Origin: Lytechinus pictus
Lineage: Eukaryota
Assembly (NCBI RefSeq): GCF_037042905.1
Contig: NC_087248.1
Coordinates: forward strand, 25,048,001-25,112,000
Direction: 5' to 3'
Length of the DNA stretch: 64,000 nucleotides
Part shown: positions 1 through 12,000 of the stretch, one piece after another
Layout of the letters: every line of letters starts with the position of its first letter
How positions within the stretch are numbered: position 1 is the stretch's first letter
Made by a program: the position numbers

Positions 1-3000
1 TTGACAAGTACGTATATAATAGAAACAAACGATGATAGAACAAATAACGACAGACGCGTCCGTCTAGTAATGTCACATAATGTATAAAATATTACGTTCA
101 AATAATCTTTAGCATCATCTGCAAAGGTATATTTTACCTCTTCAAACCTATTTTTACCTTCTAATTATTGAAGGGATAAGCATATACTCATGATAGCGTA
201 TAATCATGATATAATCATGGTAAGTCTAAGCATACAGATGATTTCAATATATACTATAACAATCAATTAATTGAGAGACAGAATTCCGTGAAGTATTTAG
301 ATCTGATATTAAATAGTGATCTCTCATGTACATCTATGGTTGACTCTATTGTCAAAAAAGCTAATTCTCGCTTGAAATTTATATACCGGTACCAAAATTG
401 CATGAATACGAAATCCAGACGCATTTTAAGCTTTTCATTAATACAGTGTTTATTTGATTATGCTAATGCAGCATGGTACTGCAGTCTTGGAAAGGTTGAT
501 AAAAAAAGTTTATAATTATTTAAAATAAGATTGTTAGATTTATTACTTGCTTACACCCAAGAACACATGTTGGGAAGAATGAAATCGAAAAAGCTGGCCT
601 TCTTCGCATAGACTTGAGGTCGCAACAACTTATACTTCACCATGTTCATAAAATTTTCTATTCAAACGAATATCATTACATATAAAAAAAACATTGGTCC
701 AGTCATTTATTATGTAAACAAACAGCCGAAATGTTTGATTAGTGCTATCGATGTAAAAAAAACACAATAATTAAAAACGATTGGAAAAAAATTTGCTTTA
801 GCGCATTCTCTACATTACCCATATGAACCAAAATTTGTTTAGGGCAAAAAGCTCGTTTCATTTGTATTGTTCATGAGCATGGAAAATGAAAACAAGATTC
901 GCTTTTTCTCTCTGGTTCGTTTCTTTGCATTTGATTCATTGAAACTTTACATGTATATGCATTCGTATCTTATGAAATTATGATGTTGTCTAATCATCTT
1001 TAACATAATGATTTGTAATAAATGTACCTCACACAATGGCCCAAGAAGTGAAATTTGCGTCTACTGTTCAGTCAAAACTTTTATTTTTTTAAGTTTATAG
1101 CAATTTGCCACTATGCTTTATTTCTGTGTAATAAAAAATAATGTGATAAACACATCCAGAACTGAAGTTCATGAAGTTGATAGACCGTCCAACATTAACA
1201 ATAGTAGTATAGCAATCATTAATTTCAGTATGTTTTTAATGTGGTATTTTGATGGCGTACGAAATGAAGATTCTTAGGTTTATGATTTGATTGAAACAAG
1301 TATTGTGAGCACAGGACCCGTCGAGATAATAATCATAATAATATGCATTTATATAGCGCCATCTATCTAGAAATAATCTAATCCGAGGCGCACTGTTTAT
1401 TATTATTATTATTATTACTCGACTTTAGCTAGAGCTACCTTTCAACGATCCGTGCGTTTGAGAAATTAATTCTGCCGTGTATCGATTCATGTTCCTCACT
1501 TGGGTTGGGTGCAGCTCAACGTGGATAAATTGCTTGCTGAAGGAAATAACGCCATGGCTGGGATTCGAACCCACGACCCTATGTTTCAAGGCTAATACAC
1601 TGGGTCACAACGCTCTACATGTAAATTATTAGTACTTAAAATCCAACAATCGAATTCATTATAGTTTATTATGAAAATGTATTCAATAGTCAAGATATCA
1701 AATCATATTATGATTTCATTGGTGCCATTGTGTACAATGAACCACTTACAGTTCTTCCAATGCTTTGAAATTAAACAAATAAATCTATCAAAACCTAAGA
1801 ACCTTGCAAGAACATTTTTAATGTTAGTAACTCATAAAGCCCACGGTCCACCAAATAATTGCACTATAAAGGAGCATTAGTTTCATCTGACTAAAGGACT
1901 ATATTTCCCCTTAATTTTGTTTGTTTGTTTACGGTTAATAATCGTGCCGATACTTAAAAAAATACGGAGTGTGAAATGTTAGCAGATATGCAAAACACGA
2001 TTTCCTTTAAGATTTTCTATCATATAATATCATTTTTATTACCATGATTACAGCAATACTAGATTGGTGTGTTGTTTAGTGGATGATATTCGTGATAAAC
2101 TACATTTCTATATTCCCATTTCTGCATACGGATTAAAATACAATAACCTTGATTTCCTCTTTATGCTACTACTATATCAGATTGAGATTCTTCATCACGA
2201 TGAGTATCTCATCAAACGTGCATCTGCATCACGTGATTTCGCTCAGTTCATCTGTAAGATGAATTATCTGAAGAACCTCACACTCGACGGTCAGTATCAT
2301 GATGACTTCTACTCAACATCATCGTCGATGGCATCAACTACAAAGGTAATACATGTTAGGAGGTCTTTACATGTAAAAAGAGTAGAACTCACAAGCAAAC
2401 CATACAAGTTCTGATTTTTGTTCATGCTCCTCATTATGTAGCCATTAATTTGTATAATGGGGCTATGATGCCTCCTATAAAGCGAAATTGTTCATACCTT
2501 TACTGAATTATTATTCTGGTAAATTTTAATTGATTCCTTCCCATATGTTTAGGGTAATCAAGAGGCACACCTGTTTGACGGTTAAATTAAACGAACCCTT
2601 AACACGTTGACATCCATAATGCATCCGTATAAGAATAATTTTACAAAAAAAAAATAGTAATAAATCTTTATGTATGCAGCACATATGCGATAAAACACGT
2701 TACATTCCGTCTCTGCATCATTAAATGCTATTTATATTTGTGTGTAGATATGTTTAGAAGTAATAGTTCCTTTAATTGTTTATTGCAGTGAACCTAAAAT
2801 GTAGAAACCGTCTTTCCCCTTGTTGAAAAGTATGCAGATATATATGCCCCTGTATATTGTATTAACATACGAAGACAATACAAATAATGACAGATGCGTC
2901 CAAATACTACACCAATACACTAAACTATGAACAAAGAGGTGTCATTCGAATAGTTTCATCAAATCTATTCTTTATCATTTTGTCTTTATCTTTTTTTGTT

Positions 3001-9000: not shown

Positions 9001-12000
9001 ATTTATATAGCGCCATCTATCAAGACATAATCTAATCCGAGGCGCACTGTTAATTGTTATTATTATTATTACATCGGCTTTAGCTAGAGCTGCCTTTCAG
9101 CGCTCAGTGCGTTTAAGAAAATTAATTCTGCCGTGTATCCATTCATGTTCCTCACTTGGGTTGGGTGCAGCTCAACGTGGATAAATTGCTTGCTGAAATT
9201 GCATGGCTGGGATTCGTACCCAGACCTTTTGTTTCAAGACTAATATATTGGGCCACAACGCTCTACATGTAAATTATTAGTACTTATAATCTAACGATAT
9301 TATTCATTGTTTCTTATTCGAATTCATTATAGCATATTATGAAAATTTATTAAATAATTAAGATATCAAATCATATGATTTAATTGGTGCCATTGTGTAT
9401 ACAATAAACCAGTAACAGTTCTTCCAATGCTTTGAAATTAATCTATCAAAACCTAAAAACCTTGCAAGAACACTTTGAATGTTAGTAACTCAAAAAGCTT
9501 GGCACCAAAATATTATGCTATAACCAAACATTTGTTTCATCTGACTAAAATGACTATATATTTCACCTTAAGTTTTTATTGTGTATTTTCAGTTAATAAT
9601 CGGGCCGATACTTTAAAAAATACGGAGTGTTGTATGTTAGCAGATATGCAAAACGCGATTCCGATTAAGATTTTCTATTATGATAACATTTTTATTACCA
9701 TTATTACAGCCATACTAGATTGGTGTGTTGTTTTGCAGATGATATTCATGATAAATTTGATTTTAATACTCCCATTTCTGTCAACGGATTAATGTACAGT
9801 AACCTTGATTACATCTTTATGTTACTATTATATCAGATTGAGACTCTTGATCACAATGATCATCTCAGTGAACGTCCGTCTGCATCACGTGATCTCGCTC
9901 AGTTCATCTGTAAGATGAATCATCTGAAGAACCTCACACTCTACGGTCAGTATCATGATGTCTTCTACTCAACAGCATCGTCGATGGCATCAACTGCGAA
10001 GGTAACATATGTTGGGAGGTTTTACATGAAAAAAGTAGTACAAGGAAACCATACAATTTTTTTAGTGTGATAATCCTCATTCTATTGACAATGAAGTTGT
10101 CTAATGAGGCTATGATTAACTGTAGAGTGCGTCCCACAAAAAACGAAACCGAGATTTAGCGATGATTTATCATACCTTAATCATAAATACAATAGACAAA
10201 TGACCTATCAATGTAAAGCTTAGAATCTCCTCTTTCCTGTGATATTACTTAGATTATTCATTATTCATGCATGAGTGAGCAAACAAAATTGAAGAAAGGA
10301 TGCCAAAAACTCATTTGACGGGGGGTATCTGAATTTCCAAAAAAAGTCACATGCCTCACAAGTTCAATATCCGCTCTTTTATTTGATACCTTAATCACAA
10401 AAAAATGATCAAGAAGTAAGAAAGTTATGGTCCATCGAAACAATGCTTGTATTTCCATAGTTTCATTAAATAAACGTGTTTTCACCGGTTTCCAACAGAA
10501 GCTATCGCACGGTTTAACAAAACGGAGTGTCGAGTGAGTTTGAATGCTTGCCTGTAAATCCTCTTAATTTTATGAGATTATTGAAATTCAAGCCTTATTT
10601 CAAATGACCAGAACTTTGTTATTTCTTGACCATTTTCTAAAATTGAGGTATCAAATTAAAGAGCAGATATTGAACTTTTTAGAAATGTGGTTTTCCTTTT
10701 GTAACCCAGATAGAGCCCGCAAAATGACTTTTTGGTATCCCCTCTTCAAATTGTTTTTGCTCACTCATGCATGAATGATAAAAATCTAAGTAATTTCAGA
10801 TGAAAGAAGGGATTCTAAGCTTTACAATGGTAGGTCATTGTCTATTGTATTTGTCATCGATAAATCTCGGTTTCGGTTTTTGTGGGACGCACTGTATAAA
10901 GCGAAATTGTTCATATCTATACCGAATTGTTATTATATCAATTGTCAATTAATAGTAGCCATAAACCAATTGTATAAATGTTTCGGAAATTGTTTCCATT
11001 TTCGTTAAAGAATCTAGGACAAATGAGTAGGGGATTTGTGCCCCCTTATTTTATTATTGAGCTCTACCAAATGATACATAATGAACTGATGATATAAGCA
11101 TAATGCAATGAGATATATGTGTTTTTTCCTATTAATTTTCGAATCGTATTGTGTTTTGATGAGAGCTTTTTAATGCAATGGAAAACTTGCAATTTTTGGA
11201 GGTTTGCATAGCAATTAATCAACCCTTTTTATCTAAAGCTAAATTTATTTTGAAAGCACATCGAGTGTTACAACTGATTAACCCATTAACCTATTTTGCA
11301 TTACTAGTATAATCATTATGTTTCACATGACGAATAGGCCTGTATGTTTTTATCCAAAGTTGTTATCTAAATTTACTTTAGGATAAACTTACACTTCGTG
11401 ATGCAGATTAAGGTTTAAAATGTATAGCAGATTAAAACAAACATTGTTTTGTGCGGGGTTTATAGCAAAATGAATTTTCCCAAAGTGTGGTGCGTGACAT
11501 TTTCGTTATGGTCCTACTCTATATAAATCAAATTCTCTTTTTCTTACCTCGGTATTGGGATCTGTGAAATAGATTTCTTTAACATTTAAATGGGTTTTTT
11601 TTTATTCTAATTTTGATTTCAGGTGTTATAATTAAACTACAATCTTGATACACTAGGGGGCATATCAGGCTCAAAAGAGATGAAGATTACTTTTACTTAA
11701 ATTCATTTATATGAGGAATTCGTCGGCATAGTAAAAAATGAACATCAGAGTACAGATGAAAATCACAGCATGATTGTTTTTTTATTACAAAGGCAAAAAA
11801 AATTATTCGCTGCTTTCAATCTATCGCTGTTTTTTTTTGGCCTCTCTTTCCACGCTCGGCCCCCTCAAAATATTTGGTTCATTCAACCACTGAATGTGAT
11901 TGCACTGATGAATGTACTAGGGTGTGGAGTAGAAATGTGTTATTTCTTCTAGCCATACTGAGCCCGCATACCATTTTACTGCACTTCGAATGGTTACATT

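What the first reader, a model, noticed from the sequence alone, without database searches (positions are those of the whole stretch)
2181..10001. Every differing codon between exons A1 and A2 changes the amino acid
Hand alignment of the two 55-codon exons gives 17 nucleotide differences in 14 codons. All 14 change the residue and no codon differs only synonymously (three codons carry a second, silent change). Eight of the 14 fall in the first 14 codons (IEILHHDEYLIKRA vs IETLDHNDHLSERP), around the predicted beta-strand face, while the SASRDxAQFICKMN helix is nearly invariant. Inference: diversifying selection on a ligand-binding surface. Relaxed constraint is an alternative, and the counts are small.
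Basis: partly seen in the sequence, partly recalled or inferred. Interest (0 to 1): 0.68.

Follow-up and report, generated by a model that had tools for sequence, protein, structure and literature searches.

The report
Sea urchin NLR leucine-rich-repeat cassette exons
Two duplicated exons of a sea urchin innate-immune receptor gene differ almost only at the positions that vary across the whole gene family, on the presumed binding face, which fits selection for diversity but does not prove it.

Summary
Exons A1 (2181-2345) and A2 (9837-10001) differ at 17 bases in 14 codons. All 14 change the residue, and 3 carry an extra silent change.

They are phase-0 cassette exons, each encoding two RNase-inhibitor-type leucine-rich repeats. 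They lie in the 3' part of Lytechinus pictus LOC129258778, a Death-NACHT-LRR (NLR) gene. The window is sea urchin, not human.

The pair alone does not show positive selection. NG86 omega is 1.29 (Fisher p=1.0), and the exon (10.3% diverged) is no more diverged than its duplicated intron flank (13.6%).

The changes are not random:
- 11 of 14 fall on the 14 most variable positions of 201 family units, in or next to the beta-strands.
- At 13 family-defined hypervariable codons, replacement divergence is about 2.5-2.7 times the intron rate (p=0.009-0.019).
- At the other 42 codons it is about 0.3 times the intron rate (p=0.005).
- Both states at all 14 sites occur in other units, in mixed combinations.

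Best reading: a pool of variants reshuffled between cassettes, diversity favoured on the concave face, scaffold conserved. Interpretation partly supported. The family is known; interest is modest.

The parts
2181..2345 (+). Exon A1: type-A LRR cassette exon, 165 nt, 55 codons, two leucine-rich repeats (28+27 residues), phase 0/0
   Evidence: AG/GT flanked and open. Exact substring of the L. pictus RefSeq protein P0057 at residue 1043. 100% hit.
6471..6653 (+). Exon B: type-B LRR cassette exon, 183 nt, 61 codons, paralogous to A1/A2 with a 1+5 codon insertion
   Evidence: tblastn. Exact substring of P0057 at 1098. NG86 omega against A1 0.55 and against A2 0.40, with dS about 0.6. Weak LRR_4 match, E=0.0085, below the cut-off.
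9837..10001 (+). Exon A2: type-A LRR cassette exon, 165 nt, 55 codons
   Evidence: Exact substring of P0057 at 1159.
689..2180 (+). Intron sequence upstream of A1, duplicated with the exon (partner 8369-9836)
   Evidence: blastn 689-2469 against 8369-10116, 80.3% over 1842 columns. MAFFT: 191 mismatches in 1410 aligned bases (13.6%), 140 gap columns in 24 runs.
8369..9836 (+). Intron sequence upstream of A2, partner of 689-2180. Duplication period 7656 bp.
   Evidence: (family D9, spacing 7656).
2346..2469 (+). Start of the intron after A1, alignable to 10002-10116 after A2. Homology ends here.
   Evidence: 31 mismatches in 115 aligned bases (27%).
13218..13594 (+). Next coding exon: non-cassette C-terminal LRR-like region. 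It ends in phase 2.
   Evidence: tblastn of P0057 residues 1214-1340, 99%. Exact substring. Splice sites read. No Pfam hit. Strand/helix alternation continues in the model of the paralogue P0028.
14345..14446 (+). Penultimate coding exon of the gene model (33 full codons plus split codons)
   Evidence: Exact match to P0057 from residue 1340. Splice sites read. The last five codons of the model were not located.

Best explanation
A1 and A2 are paralogous cassette exons of the leucine-rich-repeat (LRR) domain of a sea urchin innate-immune receptor gene. The gene is Lytechinus pictus LOC129258778 and its architecture is Death domain, NACHT ATPase, LRRs (an NLR).

Each cassette begins and ends on a codon boundary and encodes exactly two RNase-inhibitor-type repeats (strand, helix, strand, helix). 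Cassettes can therefore be duplicated, lost or skipped without breaking the frame. In this gene a two-exon module, type B then type A, has been duplicated in tandem with a period of 7,656 bp. That gives the order B0-A1-B-A2, followed by a fixed C-terminal exon.

Across the family the cassette has a nearly invariant scaffold. About a dozen positions are hypervariable: alternating residues in and just after the two beta-strands, where an LRR solenoid has its concave face, and a few others. The 14 A1/A2 differences are a sample of that pattern.

Both states at every differing site already exist in other cassettes, in almost every combination. I therefore read the differences as drawn from a family-wide pool of variants that is reshuffled between cassettes by unequal crossing-over or gene conversion. 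Variety is kept at the concave, presumably ligand-contacting positions. The scaffold is held constant by purifying selection, by homogenisation, or by both.

Shown: gene identity, exon anatomy, the counts, clustering, family hypervariability, and scaffold conservation relative to the intron.
Inferred: that the variable residues face solvent on the concave side, that exchange between cassettes is the mechanism, that selection rather than tolerance keeps the variety, and that the surface binds a ligand.
For: Gene identity:
- Exon A1 hits 100 of 102 candidates at E<=0.01. 99 are named proteins of three sea urchin species; P0001 comes from an unnamed metaclust source. One hit is 100% identical: P0057, LOC129258778 isoform X2.
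- All five window exons are exact substrings of P0057, in order.
- P0057 carries NACHT (E=9.1e-22) and Death (E=3.7e-7) domains.

Fold:
- AlphaFold2 model of the paralogue P0028 from a 28-sequence alignment: pLDDT 87.4, pTM 0.85, regular strand/helix alternation.
- Best PDB fold matches are NLRP14, plant F-box LRR proteins, NLRP9, TLR8 and RNase inhibitor, at E 5e-13 to 1e-9.

Family pattern in 201 unique 55-residue units of two Lytechinus species:
- Entropy is 2.59, 2.86, 2.70 and 2.03 bits at positions 5, 7, 36 and 38, with up to 18 residue types. It is below 0.4 bits at most scaffold positions.
- The profile is reproducible between species (Spearman 0.74).
- Type-B units show the same strand-centred variability.
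- 11 of the 14 A1/A2 differences are among the top 14 positions.

Rates in the A1/A2 pair:
- Hypervariable class (13 codons, defined without A1 and A2): Nd=10 on 31.8 sites, dN 0.41, against intron K 0.149-0.162. Fisher p=0.009 (upstream intron) and 0.019 (both introns).
- Scaffold (42 codons): Nd=4 on 97.8 sites, p=0.005.
- Only 2.1% of 1,288 intron windows of 123 nt are as conserved as codons 15-55.
- A against B: omega 0.40-0.55.

Reshuffling:
- Every one of the 28 states is seen in at least 2 other units.
- 66 of 91 site pairs show all four combinations.
- The nearest relatives of A1 (51/55) and A2 (54/55) are in other gene models, while A1-A2 is 41/55, the 23.5th percentile of unit pairs.
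- Units per gene model range from 1 to 18.
- Within-protein identity (0.83-0.85) is barely above between-protein identity (0.78-0.81).
Against: - Pairwise NG86 omega is 1.29 with Fisher p=1.0. In codons 1-14 it is 0.99, because 2 of the 3 silent changes lie there.
- Whole-exon divergence (10.3%) is below the intron's (13.6% upstream, 27% downstream).
- 10 differences in 42 nt is matched by 12.3% of intron windows.
- The a-priori test on LRR x positions gives only p=0.063 (5 of 10 against 9 of 45).
- The excess at hypervariable codons over the intron rate could arise without selection, if exchange imported older variants into the exon while the introns kept a younger history.
- No coding DNA of other paralogues could be fetched, so no site-model dN/dS was run.
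- Solvent exposure was read from secondary structure plus textbook LRR geometry, not computed from coordinates.
- The family sample is the 100 best hits to A1. It includes predicted isoforms and LRR-only, probably partial, gene models.
- All-four-combination counts can also come from recurrent mutation at a few tolerant sites.
- No expression data and no ligand are known to me for this gene.
Confidence: 0.6

Rival explanations
1. Tolerance only. The scaffold of each LRR is under purifying selection. The strand-surface and loop positions are simply unconstrained and drift at about the neutral rate. No selection favours change.
For: - Omega is 1.29 overall and 0.99 in codons 1-14, neither different from 1.
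- The local density of 10/42 lies within the intron's heterogeneity (12.3% of windows).
- Several variable sites are simple two-state sites, such as positions 3, 20, 47 and 54.
Against: - Replacement divergence at the 13 family-defined hypervariable codons is 2.5-2.7 times the intron divergence (p=0.009-0.019).
- Helix positions that would also be solvent-exposed on the convex side are almost invariant in 201 units (entropy below 0.3 bits at positions 15-19, 45-46, 49 and 52). Exposure alone therefore does not predict variability. That those positions are exposed is inferred.
- Up to 16-18 residue types of very different chemistry occur at positions 5 and 7.
Confidence: 0.27
2. Exchange without selection. 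Part of one exon was overwritten by gene conversion from a more distant cassette. That imported a patch of older differences, replacement and silent together.
For: - Silent and replacement divergence are both high in codons 1-14 (pS 0.24, pN 0.238) and both low in codons 15-55 (0.037, 0.062).
- All 3 silent changes sit in replaced codons.
- The nearest relatives of each exon are in other gene models, and the closest unit to A1 is a mosaic of A1 and A2 states.
Against: - The differences are not one contiguous tract. They reach codons 20, 29, 36, 42, 47 and 54, with long identical stretches between them.
- The sites hit are the family's hypervariable ones rather than a random patch.
- This reading does not explain why the family keeps variation at exactly those positions in three species.
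- It is compatible with the best explanation and forms part of it.
Confidence: 0.1
3. Neutral decay of a redundant duplicate exon (a pseudo-exon), or a chance pattern in a small sample.
For: - Omega is near 1.
- The counts are small.
- The headline statistic was chosen after seeing the data.
Against: - Both exons are open, have canonical AG and GT sites, and are in the RefSeq model.
- Codons 15-55 are as conserved as the best 2.1% of intron windows.
- Scaffold pN is 0.041 against 0.136 in the intron, p=0.005.
- The changes are non-uniform: p=0.012 by binomial test and 0.002 by simulation.
- They coincide with independent family data (p=3.8e-6).
Confidence: 0.03

Closest known systems
Expanded sea urchin NLR family (Death-NACHT-LRR genes, about 200 loci in Strongylocentrotus purpuratus)
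   Same: - Same architecture.
- The homologues found are sea urchin proteins, several named NLR-like or NLRP-like.
- PMC5521101 (passages read) gives about 200 NLR loci. PMC12222747 (passage read) says that Hibino et al. 2006 reported an LRR NLR with high internal repeat conservation in a sea urchin genome.
   Different: - This is the L. pictus locus, annotated only as 'uncharacterized protein'.
- I found no description in the papers I could search of the per-position variability map, the A/B cassette classes, or the comparison with intron divergence.
- Hibino 2006 is not held, so I cannot say how much of this it already shows.
Fungal NLR repeats with high internal conservation (Podospora HNWD WD40, ANK and TPR repeats)
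   Same: Near-identical tandem repeats, variable repeat number, exchange of repeats within and between paralogues, and a few hypervariable positions on the binding surface (PMC4986451, passages read). All four have a counterpart here.
   Different: - The repeats here are LRRs. PMC4986451 found no LRR motifs in fungal NLRs.
- Each unit is a separate exon with kilobases of intron between units, so exchange would act on exon-plus-intron modules.
- Within-protein identity here averages 83-85%, at or just under the 85% criterion used in that paper.
- Positive selection was shown there with codon models. It is not shown here.
Zebrafish NLR-B30.2 family LRR exons
   Same: One LRR unit per exon, a variable number of units, a fixed distinct C-terminal LRR, and gene conversion and exon shuffling in a large clustered NLR family (PMC4852459, passages read).
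   Different: There the LRRs are described as not particularly variable, and positive selection is assigned to the B30.2 domain. Here there is no B30.2 domain and the variability sits in the LRR strands.
RNase inhibitor / NLRP-type LRR domains, and plant NLR LRRs
   Same: - Repeats of 27-28 residues with a helix on the convex side, two repeats per unit.
- Fold matches to NLRP14, NLRP9 and RNase inhibitor.
- Hypervariability at the x positions of the LxxLxL strand is the classic plant R-gene pattern (recalled, not from a call).
   Different: - Sequence similarity to any solved LRR is negligible. The only hit in the PDB sequence search is one weak LRR match at E=1.9e-5.
- Pfam LRR models score below their cut-offs.
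- The strand position that is normally Leu is His or Leu here, and the Asn-ladder position is Asn or Asp.

Membership tests
Animal NLR (NACHT-LRR receptor) | Central NACHT NTPase domain | tested here: met
   PF05729 NACHT, E=9.1e-22, 78.1 bits (cut-off 26.7), in P0057. Its last exons are letter-for-letter those of the window. The NACHT exon itself lies upstream of the window, so this rests on the RefSeq gene model.
Animal NLR (NACHT-LRR receptor) | C-terminal leucine-rich-repeat domain | tested here: met
   By fold: the AlphaFold2 model shows strand/helix alternation at pLDDT 87.4, with Foldseek hits to NLRP14, NLRP9, RNase inhibitor and TLR8. By sequence profile only weakly: LRR_14 26.9 bits against a cut-off of 40, and LRR_4 E=0.0085 on exon B.
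Animal NLR (NACHT-LRR receptor) | N-terminal death-fold effector domain | tested here: met
   PF00531 Death, E=3.7e-7, 30.6 bits (cut-off 22.6), residues 312-392 of P0057. It lies outside the window.
Animal NLR (NACHT-LRR receptor) | Role in immune sensing or ligand recognition by the LRRs | not testable with these tools
   No expression or binding data were available. This is inferred from family membership only.
RNase-inhibitor-type LRR | Repeats of 27-29 residues with an alpha-helix on the convex side, paired as alternating types | tested here: met
   A unit of 55 residues = 28+27. Strands at unit positions 3-7 and 32-35, helices at 14-26 and 41-52.
High-internal-conservation (HIC) NLR repeats, as defined for fungi | Repeats within one protein over 85% identical | tested here: inconclusive
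   Mean within-protein identity of 55-residue units is 0.828 (L. pictus, 185 pairs) and 0.848 (L. variegatus, 277 pairs). The scaffold's 41 positions are 0.917 identical. A1-A2 is only 74.5%.
High-internal-conservation (HIC) NLR repeats, as defined for fungi | Repeat-number variation and exchange of repeats within and between paralogues | tested here: inconclusive
   1 to 18 units per gene model; 66 of 91 site pairs with all four combinations; nearest relatives in other gene models. The evidence is protein-level only, the gene models are partly truncated, and no alleles were examined.
High-internal-conservation (HIC) NLR repeats, as defined for fungi | Positive selection (codon models) at a few positions on the binding surface | tested here: inconclusive
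   Only one pair of coding sequences was available. Overall omega is 1.29 (p=1.0). dN at hypervariable codons is 0.41 against intron K 0.15-0.16 (p=0.009-0.019). Site models could not be run.

The most novel reading that the evidence does not exclude
Sea urchin NLRs diversify their recognition surface the way fungal NLRs do, but with LRR exons as the unit. A germline library of nearly identical two-repeat cassette exons differs only at four to six concave-face positions per cassette. It is continually reshuffled within and between clustered genes by unequal crossing-over or gene conversion, and perhaps by exon skipping, which the phase-0 boundaries allow. Positive selection acts at those positions. 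That would be an animal, intron-separated counterpart of the fungal 'high internal conservation' system, and a combinatorial LRR repertoire without somatic rearrangement.
Probability: 0.4. Interest if true: 0.6.

Novelty: new member of a known kind. Interest (0 to 1): 0.35.

Why it matters
Sea urchins have about 200 NLR genes, and what they recognise is unknown. The one genome-wide selection scan I could read dropped the family because its paralogues could not be aligned (PMC5521101, passages).

The cassette structure found here gives a clean way in. The type-A units are 55 codons long without indels and occur in hundreds of copies, so codon models can be run on them directly. The candidate contact positions (5, 7, 36 and 38 of each unit) are now named and can be tested.

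If selection is confirmed, this would be an animal case of the evolutionary regime known from fungal NLR repeats and plant R-gene LRRs: conserved repeats with hypervariable surface positions.

As it stands, the finding is an ordinary and expected property of an already known immune gene family. The pair of exons alone proves little.

Tried and rejected
- Pfam on the three cassette exons singly: no hit for A1 or A2, and a sub-threshold LRR_4 hit for B. Uninformative because of the short query.
- Regex splitting of homologues into units gave overlapping, mixed-length pieces and was dropped. I used an HMM built from A1 and A2 instead.
I ran the same computation with the peptides read from the window file by coordinates.
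- Looking for more cassette copies in the window: tblastn at E<=10 finds only A1, B and A2. No further coding DNA for dN/dS exists here.
- PDB sequence search with the paralogue P0028: one weak LRR hit only.
- tRNA scan of the window: none found.
- Hibino et al. 2006 and a recalled PMC id for Rast et al. 2006 are not held.
Supplementary figure S2 of PMC4852459 (LRR alignments) and table S2 of PMC4986451 (internally conserved repeats in metazoans) might bear on the comparison and were not seen.
- A coordinate slip (a stop in the frame) was corrected by dropping that item.
- Haplotype mis-assembly as the source of the duplication was considered and rejected. The flanks differ by 13.6% plus 24 indel runs, exon B lies between them, and the gene model uses both exons.
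Exons were searched one by one, and the full-length domain scan used the database protein P0057.

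
Full report
WHAT IS THERE. The window is AT-rich animal DNA, 31-41% G+C in 2-kb windows. It is from a sea urchin, not from a human. The 55-residue translation of 2181-2345 is 100% identical to a RefSeq protein of Lytechinus pictus: P0057, 'uncharacterized protein LOC129258778 isoform X2', 1378 aa. Of 102 candidates, 100 pass E<=0.01. All but one (P0001, from an unnamed metaclust source) are named proteins of L. pictus, L. variegatus or Strongylocentrotus purpuratus, several of them named NLR-like.

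Five stretches of the window are exact, collinear substrings of P0057:
- A1: 2181-2345, residues 1043-1097.
- B: 6471-6653, residues 1098-1158.
- A2: 9837-10001, residues 1159-1213.
- A 377-nt exon at 13218-13594.
- A 102-nt exon at 14345-14446.

The last five codons of the model were not located. P0057 carries a Death domain (E=3.7e-7) and a NACHT domain (E=9.1e-22). Pfam LRR models score only below their cut-offs. The window therefore holds the 3' end of a Death-NACHT-LRR (NLR) gene. I searched the exons one at a time and did not build or search a joined spliced protein. Full-length statements rest on the database protein.

THE OBSERVATION. It is correct in every count: 17 nucleotide differences in 14 codons, all 14 changing the residue. 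Codons 11, 14 and 54 carry an extra silent third-position change. Eight of the 14 lie in codons 1-14. Positions 15-28 differ only at 20. Both exons have AG before and GT after and begin and end on codon boundaries.

IS IT MORE THAN CHANCE?
- Nei-Gojobori counting gives S=35.3, N=129.7, Sd=3, Nd=14, pS=0.085, pN=0.108, omega=1.29, Fisher p=1.0. Three silent changes is about what 17 random hits would give.
- The unusual feature is that all three silent changes sit in codons that also carry a replacement. In 50,000 simulations of 17 substitutions that keep the frame open, no synonymous-only codon occurs in 1.5-1.7% of cases. Silent changes are 3 in 8.0 synonymous sites of changed codons against 0 in 27.3 of unchanged codons (Fisher p=0.009). 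Zero in 27.3 has p=0.019 at the intron rate. These are post-hoc statistics.
- Clustering is real: 8 of 14 changed codons in the first 14 of 55 gives binomial p=0.012 and simulation p=0.002.

THE NEUTRAL YARDSTICK. A1 and A2 lie in a tandem duplication. Region 689-2469 aligns to 8369-10116, with a period of 7,656 bp.
- The upstream intron differs at 191 of 1410 aligned bases (13.6%) and has 24 indel runs.
- The 115 alignable bases downstream differ at 31 (27%).
- The exon differs at 17 of 165 (10.3%).

The exon as a whole is therefore not faster than its introns. Codons 15-55 (7 differences in 123 nt) are as conserved as the best 2.1% of 1,288 intron windows. Codons 1-14 (10 in 42 nt) are matched or exceeded by 12.3% of 1,369 intron windows. 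Against the older paralogue B, omega is 0.55 (A1) and 0.40 (A2) at dS of about 0.6. Neutral decay of a redundant exon is excluded. A rate above neutral in the first 14 codons is not established by position alone.

THE FAMILY. An HMM built from A1 and A2 found 579 domain matches in the 100 homologues, and 541 units could be cut out whole. Of these, 278 are exactly 55 residues long, 234 of them unique: 86 in L. pictus, 115 in L. variegatus, 30 in S. purpuratus and 6 in the unnamed record.

In the 201 unique Lytechinus units the scaffold is almost invariant, below 0.4 bits at most positions. A small set of positions is hypervariable:

| Unit position | Entropy (bits) | Residue types |
|---|---|---|
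| 7 | 2.86 | 16 |
| 36 | 2.70 | 14 |
| 5 | 2.59 | 18 |
| 38 | 2.03 | 11 |

Next come positions 54, 8, 6, 47, 9, 12, 3, 34, 20 and 11.

- The profile is reproducible between species (Spearman 0.74 for L. pictus against L. variegatus; 0.62-0.68 against S. purpuratus).
- The 81 unique type-B units are variable at the corresponding places.
- Eleven of the 14 A1/A2 differences are among the 14 most variable positions. Mean entropy is 1.50 bits at differing sites against 0.40 at the others (Mann-Whitney p=3.8e-6).

STRUCTURE. An AlphaFold2 model was made of the LRR-only paralogue P0028 from a 28-sequence alignment. P0028's last unit is 51/55 identical to A1. The model has pLDDT 87.4 and pTM 0.85 and alternates strand and helix throughout. 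Its best PDB fold matches are NLRP14, plant F-box LRR proteins, NLRP9, TLR8 and RNase inhibitor.
- In unit coordinates, the strands are 3-7 and 32-35 and the helices are 14-26 and 41-52.
- High entropy alternates with low entropy through the strands: 3, 5, 7 against 4, and 34, 36, 38 against 33, 35, 37.
- In the textbook LRR geometry (LxxLxL, recalled) this is the pattern of side chains pointing out of the concave sheet.
- The tool returns no coordinates, so exposure is inferred and was not computed.
- Helix positions that should be exposed on the convex side are nearly invariant. Exposure alone does not explain which sites vary.

A PARTITIONED TEST. I defined hypervariable codons from the 199 other units, leaving out A1 and A2, as those with entropy of at least 1 bit. 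This gives 13 codons.

| Codon class | Nd / N sites | pN | dN |
|---|---|---|---|
| Hypervariable (13 codons) | 10 / 31.8 | 0.314 | 0.41 |
| Scaffold (42 codons) | 4 / 97.8 | 0.041 | 0.042 |

- The intron K is 0.149-0.162.
- The hypervariable class exceeds the intron rate: Fisher p=0.009 against the upstream intron, 0.019 against both introns, and 0.029 against all exon synonymous sites.
- The scaffold class is below the upstream intron rate: p=0.005.
- A stricter threshold of 1.5 bits (10 codons) gives the same picture (p=0.016-0.023).

WHY THE PAIR IS STILL NOT PROOF. A1 and A2 are not each other's nearest relatives. They share 41 of 55 residues, the 23.5th percentile of all unit pairs. A1 shares 51 with a unit of LOC129258779. 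A2 shares 54 and 53 with units of other L. pictus models.
- At all 14 differing sites, both states occur in other units, at least 2 others for every state. 66 of 91 site pairs show all four combinations, and 63 of 91 within L. pictus alone.
- Units in one protein are barely more alike (0.83-0.85) than units in different proteins (0.78-0.81).
- The number of units per gene model runs from 1 to 18.
- B0 and B, the other half of the duplicated module, differ at 13 of 61 residues, again mainly after the second strand.

The simplest reading is that cassettes exchange sequence and that A1 and A2 sample an old, shared pool of variants. Under that history the exon's variable codons can be older than the flanking intron. 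This inflates dN relative to the intron without any selection in this pair. It would also explain silent second hits confined to replaced codons. What would keep such a pool in the face of homogenisation is selection for diversity, but that step is inference.

COMPARISON WITH WHAT IS KNOWN.
- Large NLR families in sea urchins are well known. PMC5521101 (passages read) gives about 200 loci and says NLRs had to be dropped from a positive-selection scan because of paralogy.
- PMC12222747 (passage read) states that Hibino et al. 2006 reported an LRR NLR with high internal conservation in a sea urchin genome. I could not read Hibino 2006.
- The closest described regime is that of fungal NLR repeats: highly conserved WD40, ANK and TPR repeats, variation in repeat number, concerted evolution, and positive selection at a few surface positions (PMC4986451, passages read).
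- Zebrafish NLR-B30.2 genes share the layout of one LRR unit per exon, a variable number of units and a fixed last LRR. Their LRRs are described as not particularly variable (PMC4852459, passages read).
- Six literature searches found no paper that tests selection on sea urchin NLR LRRs. Most subscription papers and all supplements were out of reach.

VERDICT. The changes do concentrate in and next to the beta-strands, where an LRR has its concave face, and there they exceed the intron rate while the scaffold is constrained. However, the pairwise dN/dS is not different from 1, and exchange among paralogous cassettes confounds any two-sequence test. This is a new, unannotated member of a known kind of gene family. 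It is moderately interesting, mainly because it offers a tractable test set.

Noticed in passing
window 2527-3220, 3803-4512, 4172-4652 and 5389-5900; also 4970-5275 against 7204-7610: The A1-B intron holds three diverged copies (65-72% identical) of a repeat of about 700 bp. Another segment is shared with the B-A2 intron (76-79%). They could be a transposable element or remnants of older module duplications.
   Followed up: no
window 61062-63770, minus strand: Two adjoining open frames of 541 and 360 aa carry an endonuclease/exonuclease/phosphatase domain (E=7.7e-7) and a reverse transcriptase (E=1e-35). This is a non-LTR retrotransposon with a stop between the two parts. A second reverse-transcriptase fragment lies at 33043-33726 on the + strand (E=3.6e-13).
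   Followed up: partly
window 42995-46024 against 54140-57139, and 46160-47887 against 49354-51119: Large direct repeats spaced about 11.1 kb apart (90-97% identical) and 3.2-3.8 kb apart (90-96%) lie downstream of the gene. No cassette exon was found in them.
   Followed up: no
window 51307-52237: A minisatellite with a unit of 48-49 bp, at least 9 overlapping copies of a 95-nt reference.
   Followed up: no
window 10123-10782 against 58127-58810; 1-106 against 5347-5448: Interspersed repeat copies (90-92% identical) lie just downstream of exon A2 and 48 kb away. A 106-bp repeat sits at the window start.
   Followed up: no
P0028 (LOC129258779) residues 1-15, compared with window 9687-9836: The LRR-only gene model P0028 begins with residues that match the in-frame translation of the intron just upstream of a type-A exon. 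The same open frame runs into A1 and A2. Many LRR-only 'uncharacterized' models in this family are therefore probably truncated predictions that start inside an intron, or fragments of NLR genes.
   Followed up: partly
L. variegatus isoform sets (for example LOC121414360 X2 641 aa and X5 586 aa): Predicted isoforms of one gene differ by exactly 55 residues, the size of one type-A cassette. This fits skipping of a phase-0 cassette exon. Only the lengths were seen, not the alignments.
   Followed up: no
unit positions 6 and 9 of type-A cassettes (window codons at 2196-2198 and 2205-2207; 9852-9854 and 9861-9863): The strand position that is Leu in canonical LRRs is His in 118 and Leu in 61 of 201 units. 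The Asn-ladder position is Asn in 108 and Asp in 70. A1 and A2 carry the rare Tyr and His there. A His/Leu dimorphism at a core position is unusual and unexplained.
   Followed up: no
window 14447 onward: The last five codons and the stop of the RefSeq model (after residue 1373 of P0057) were not located in the window.
   Followed up: no
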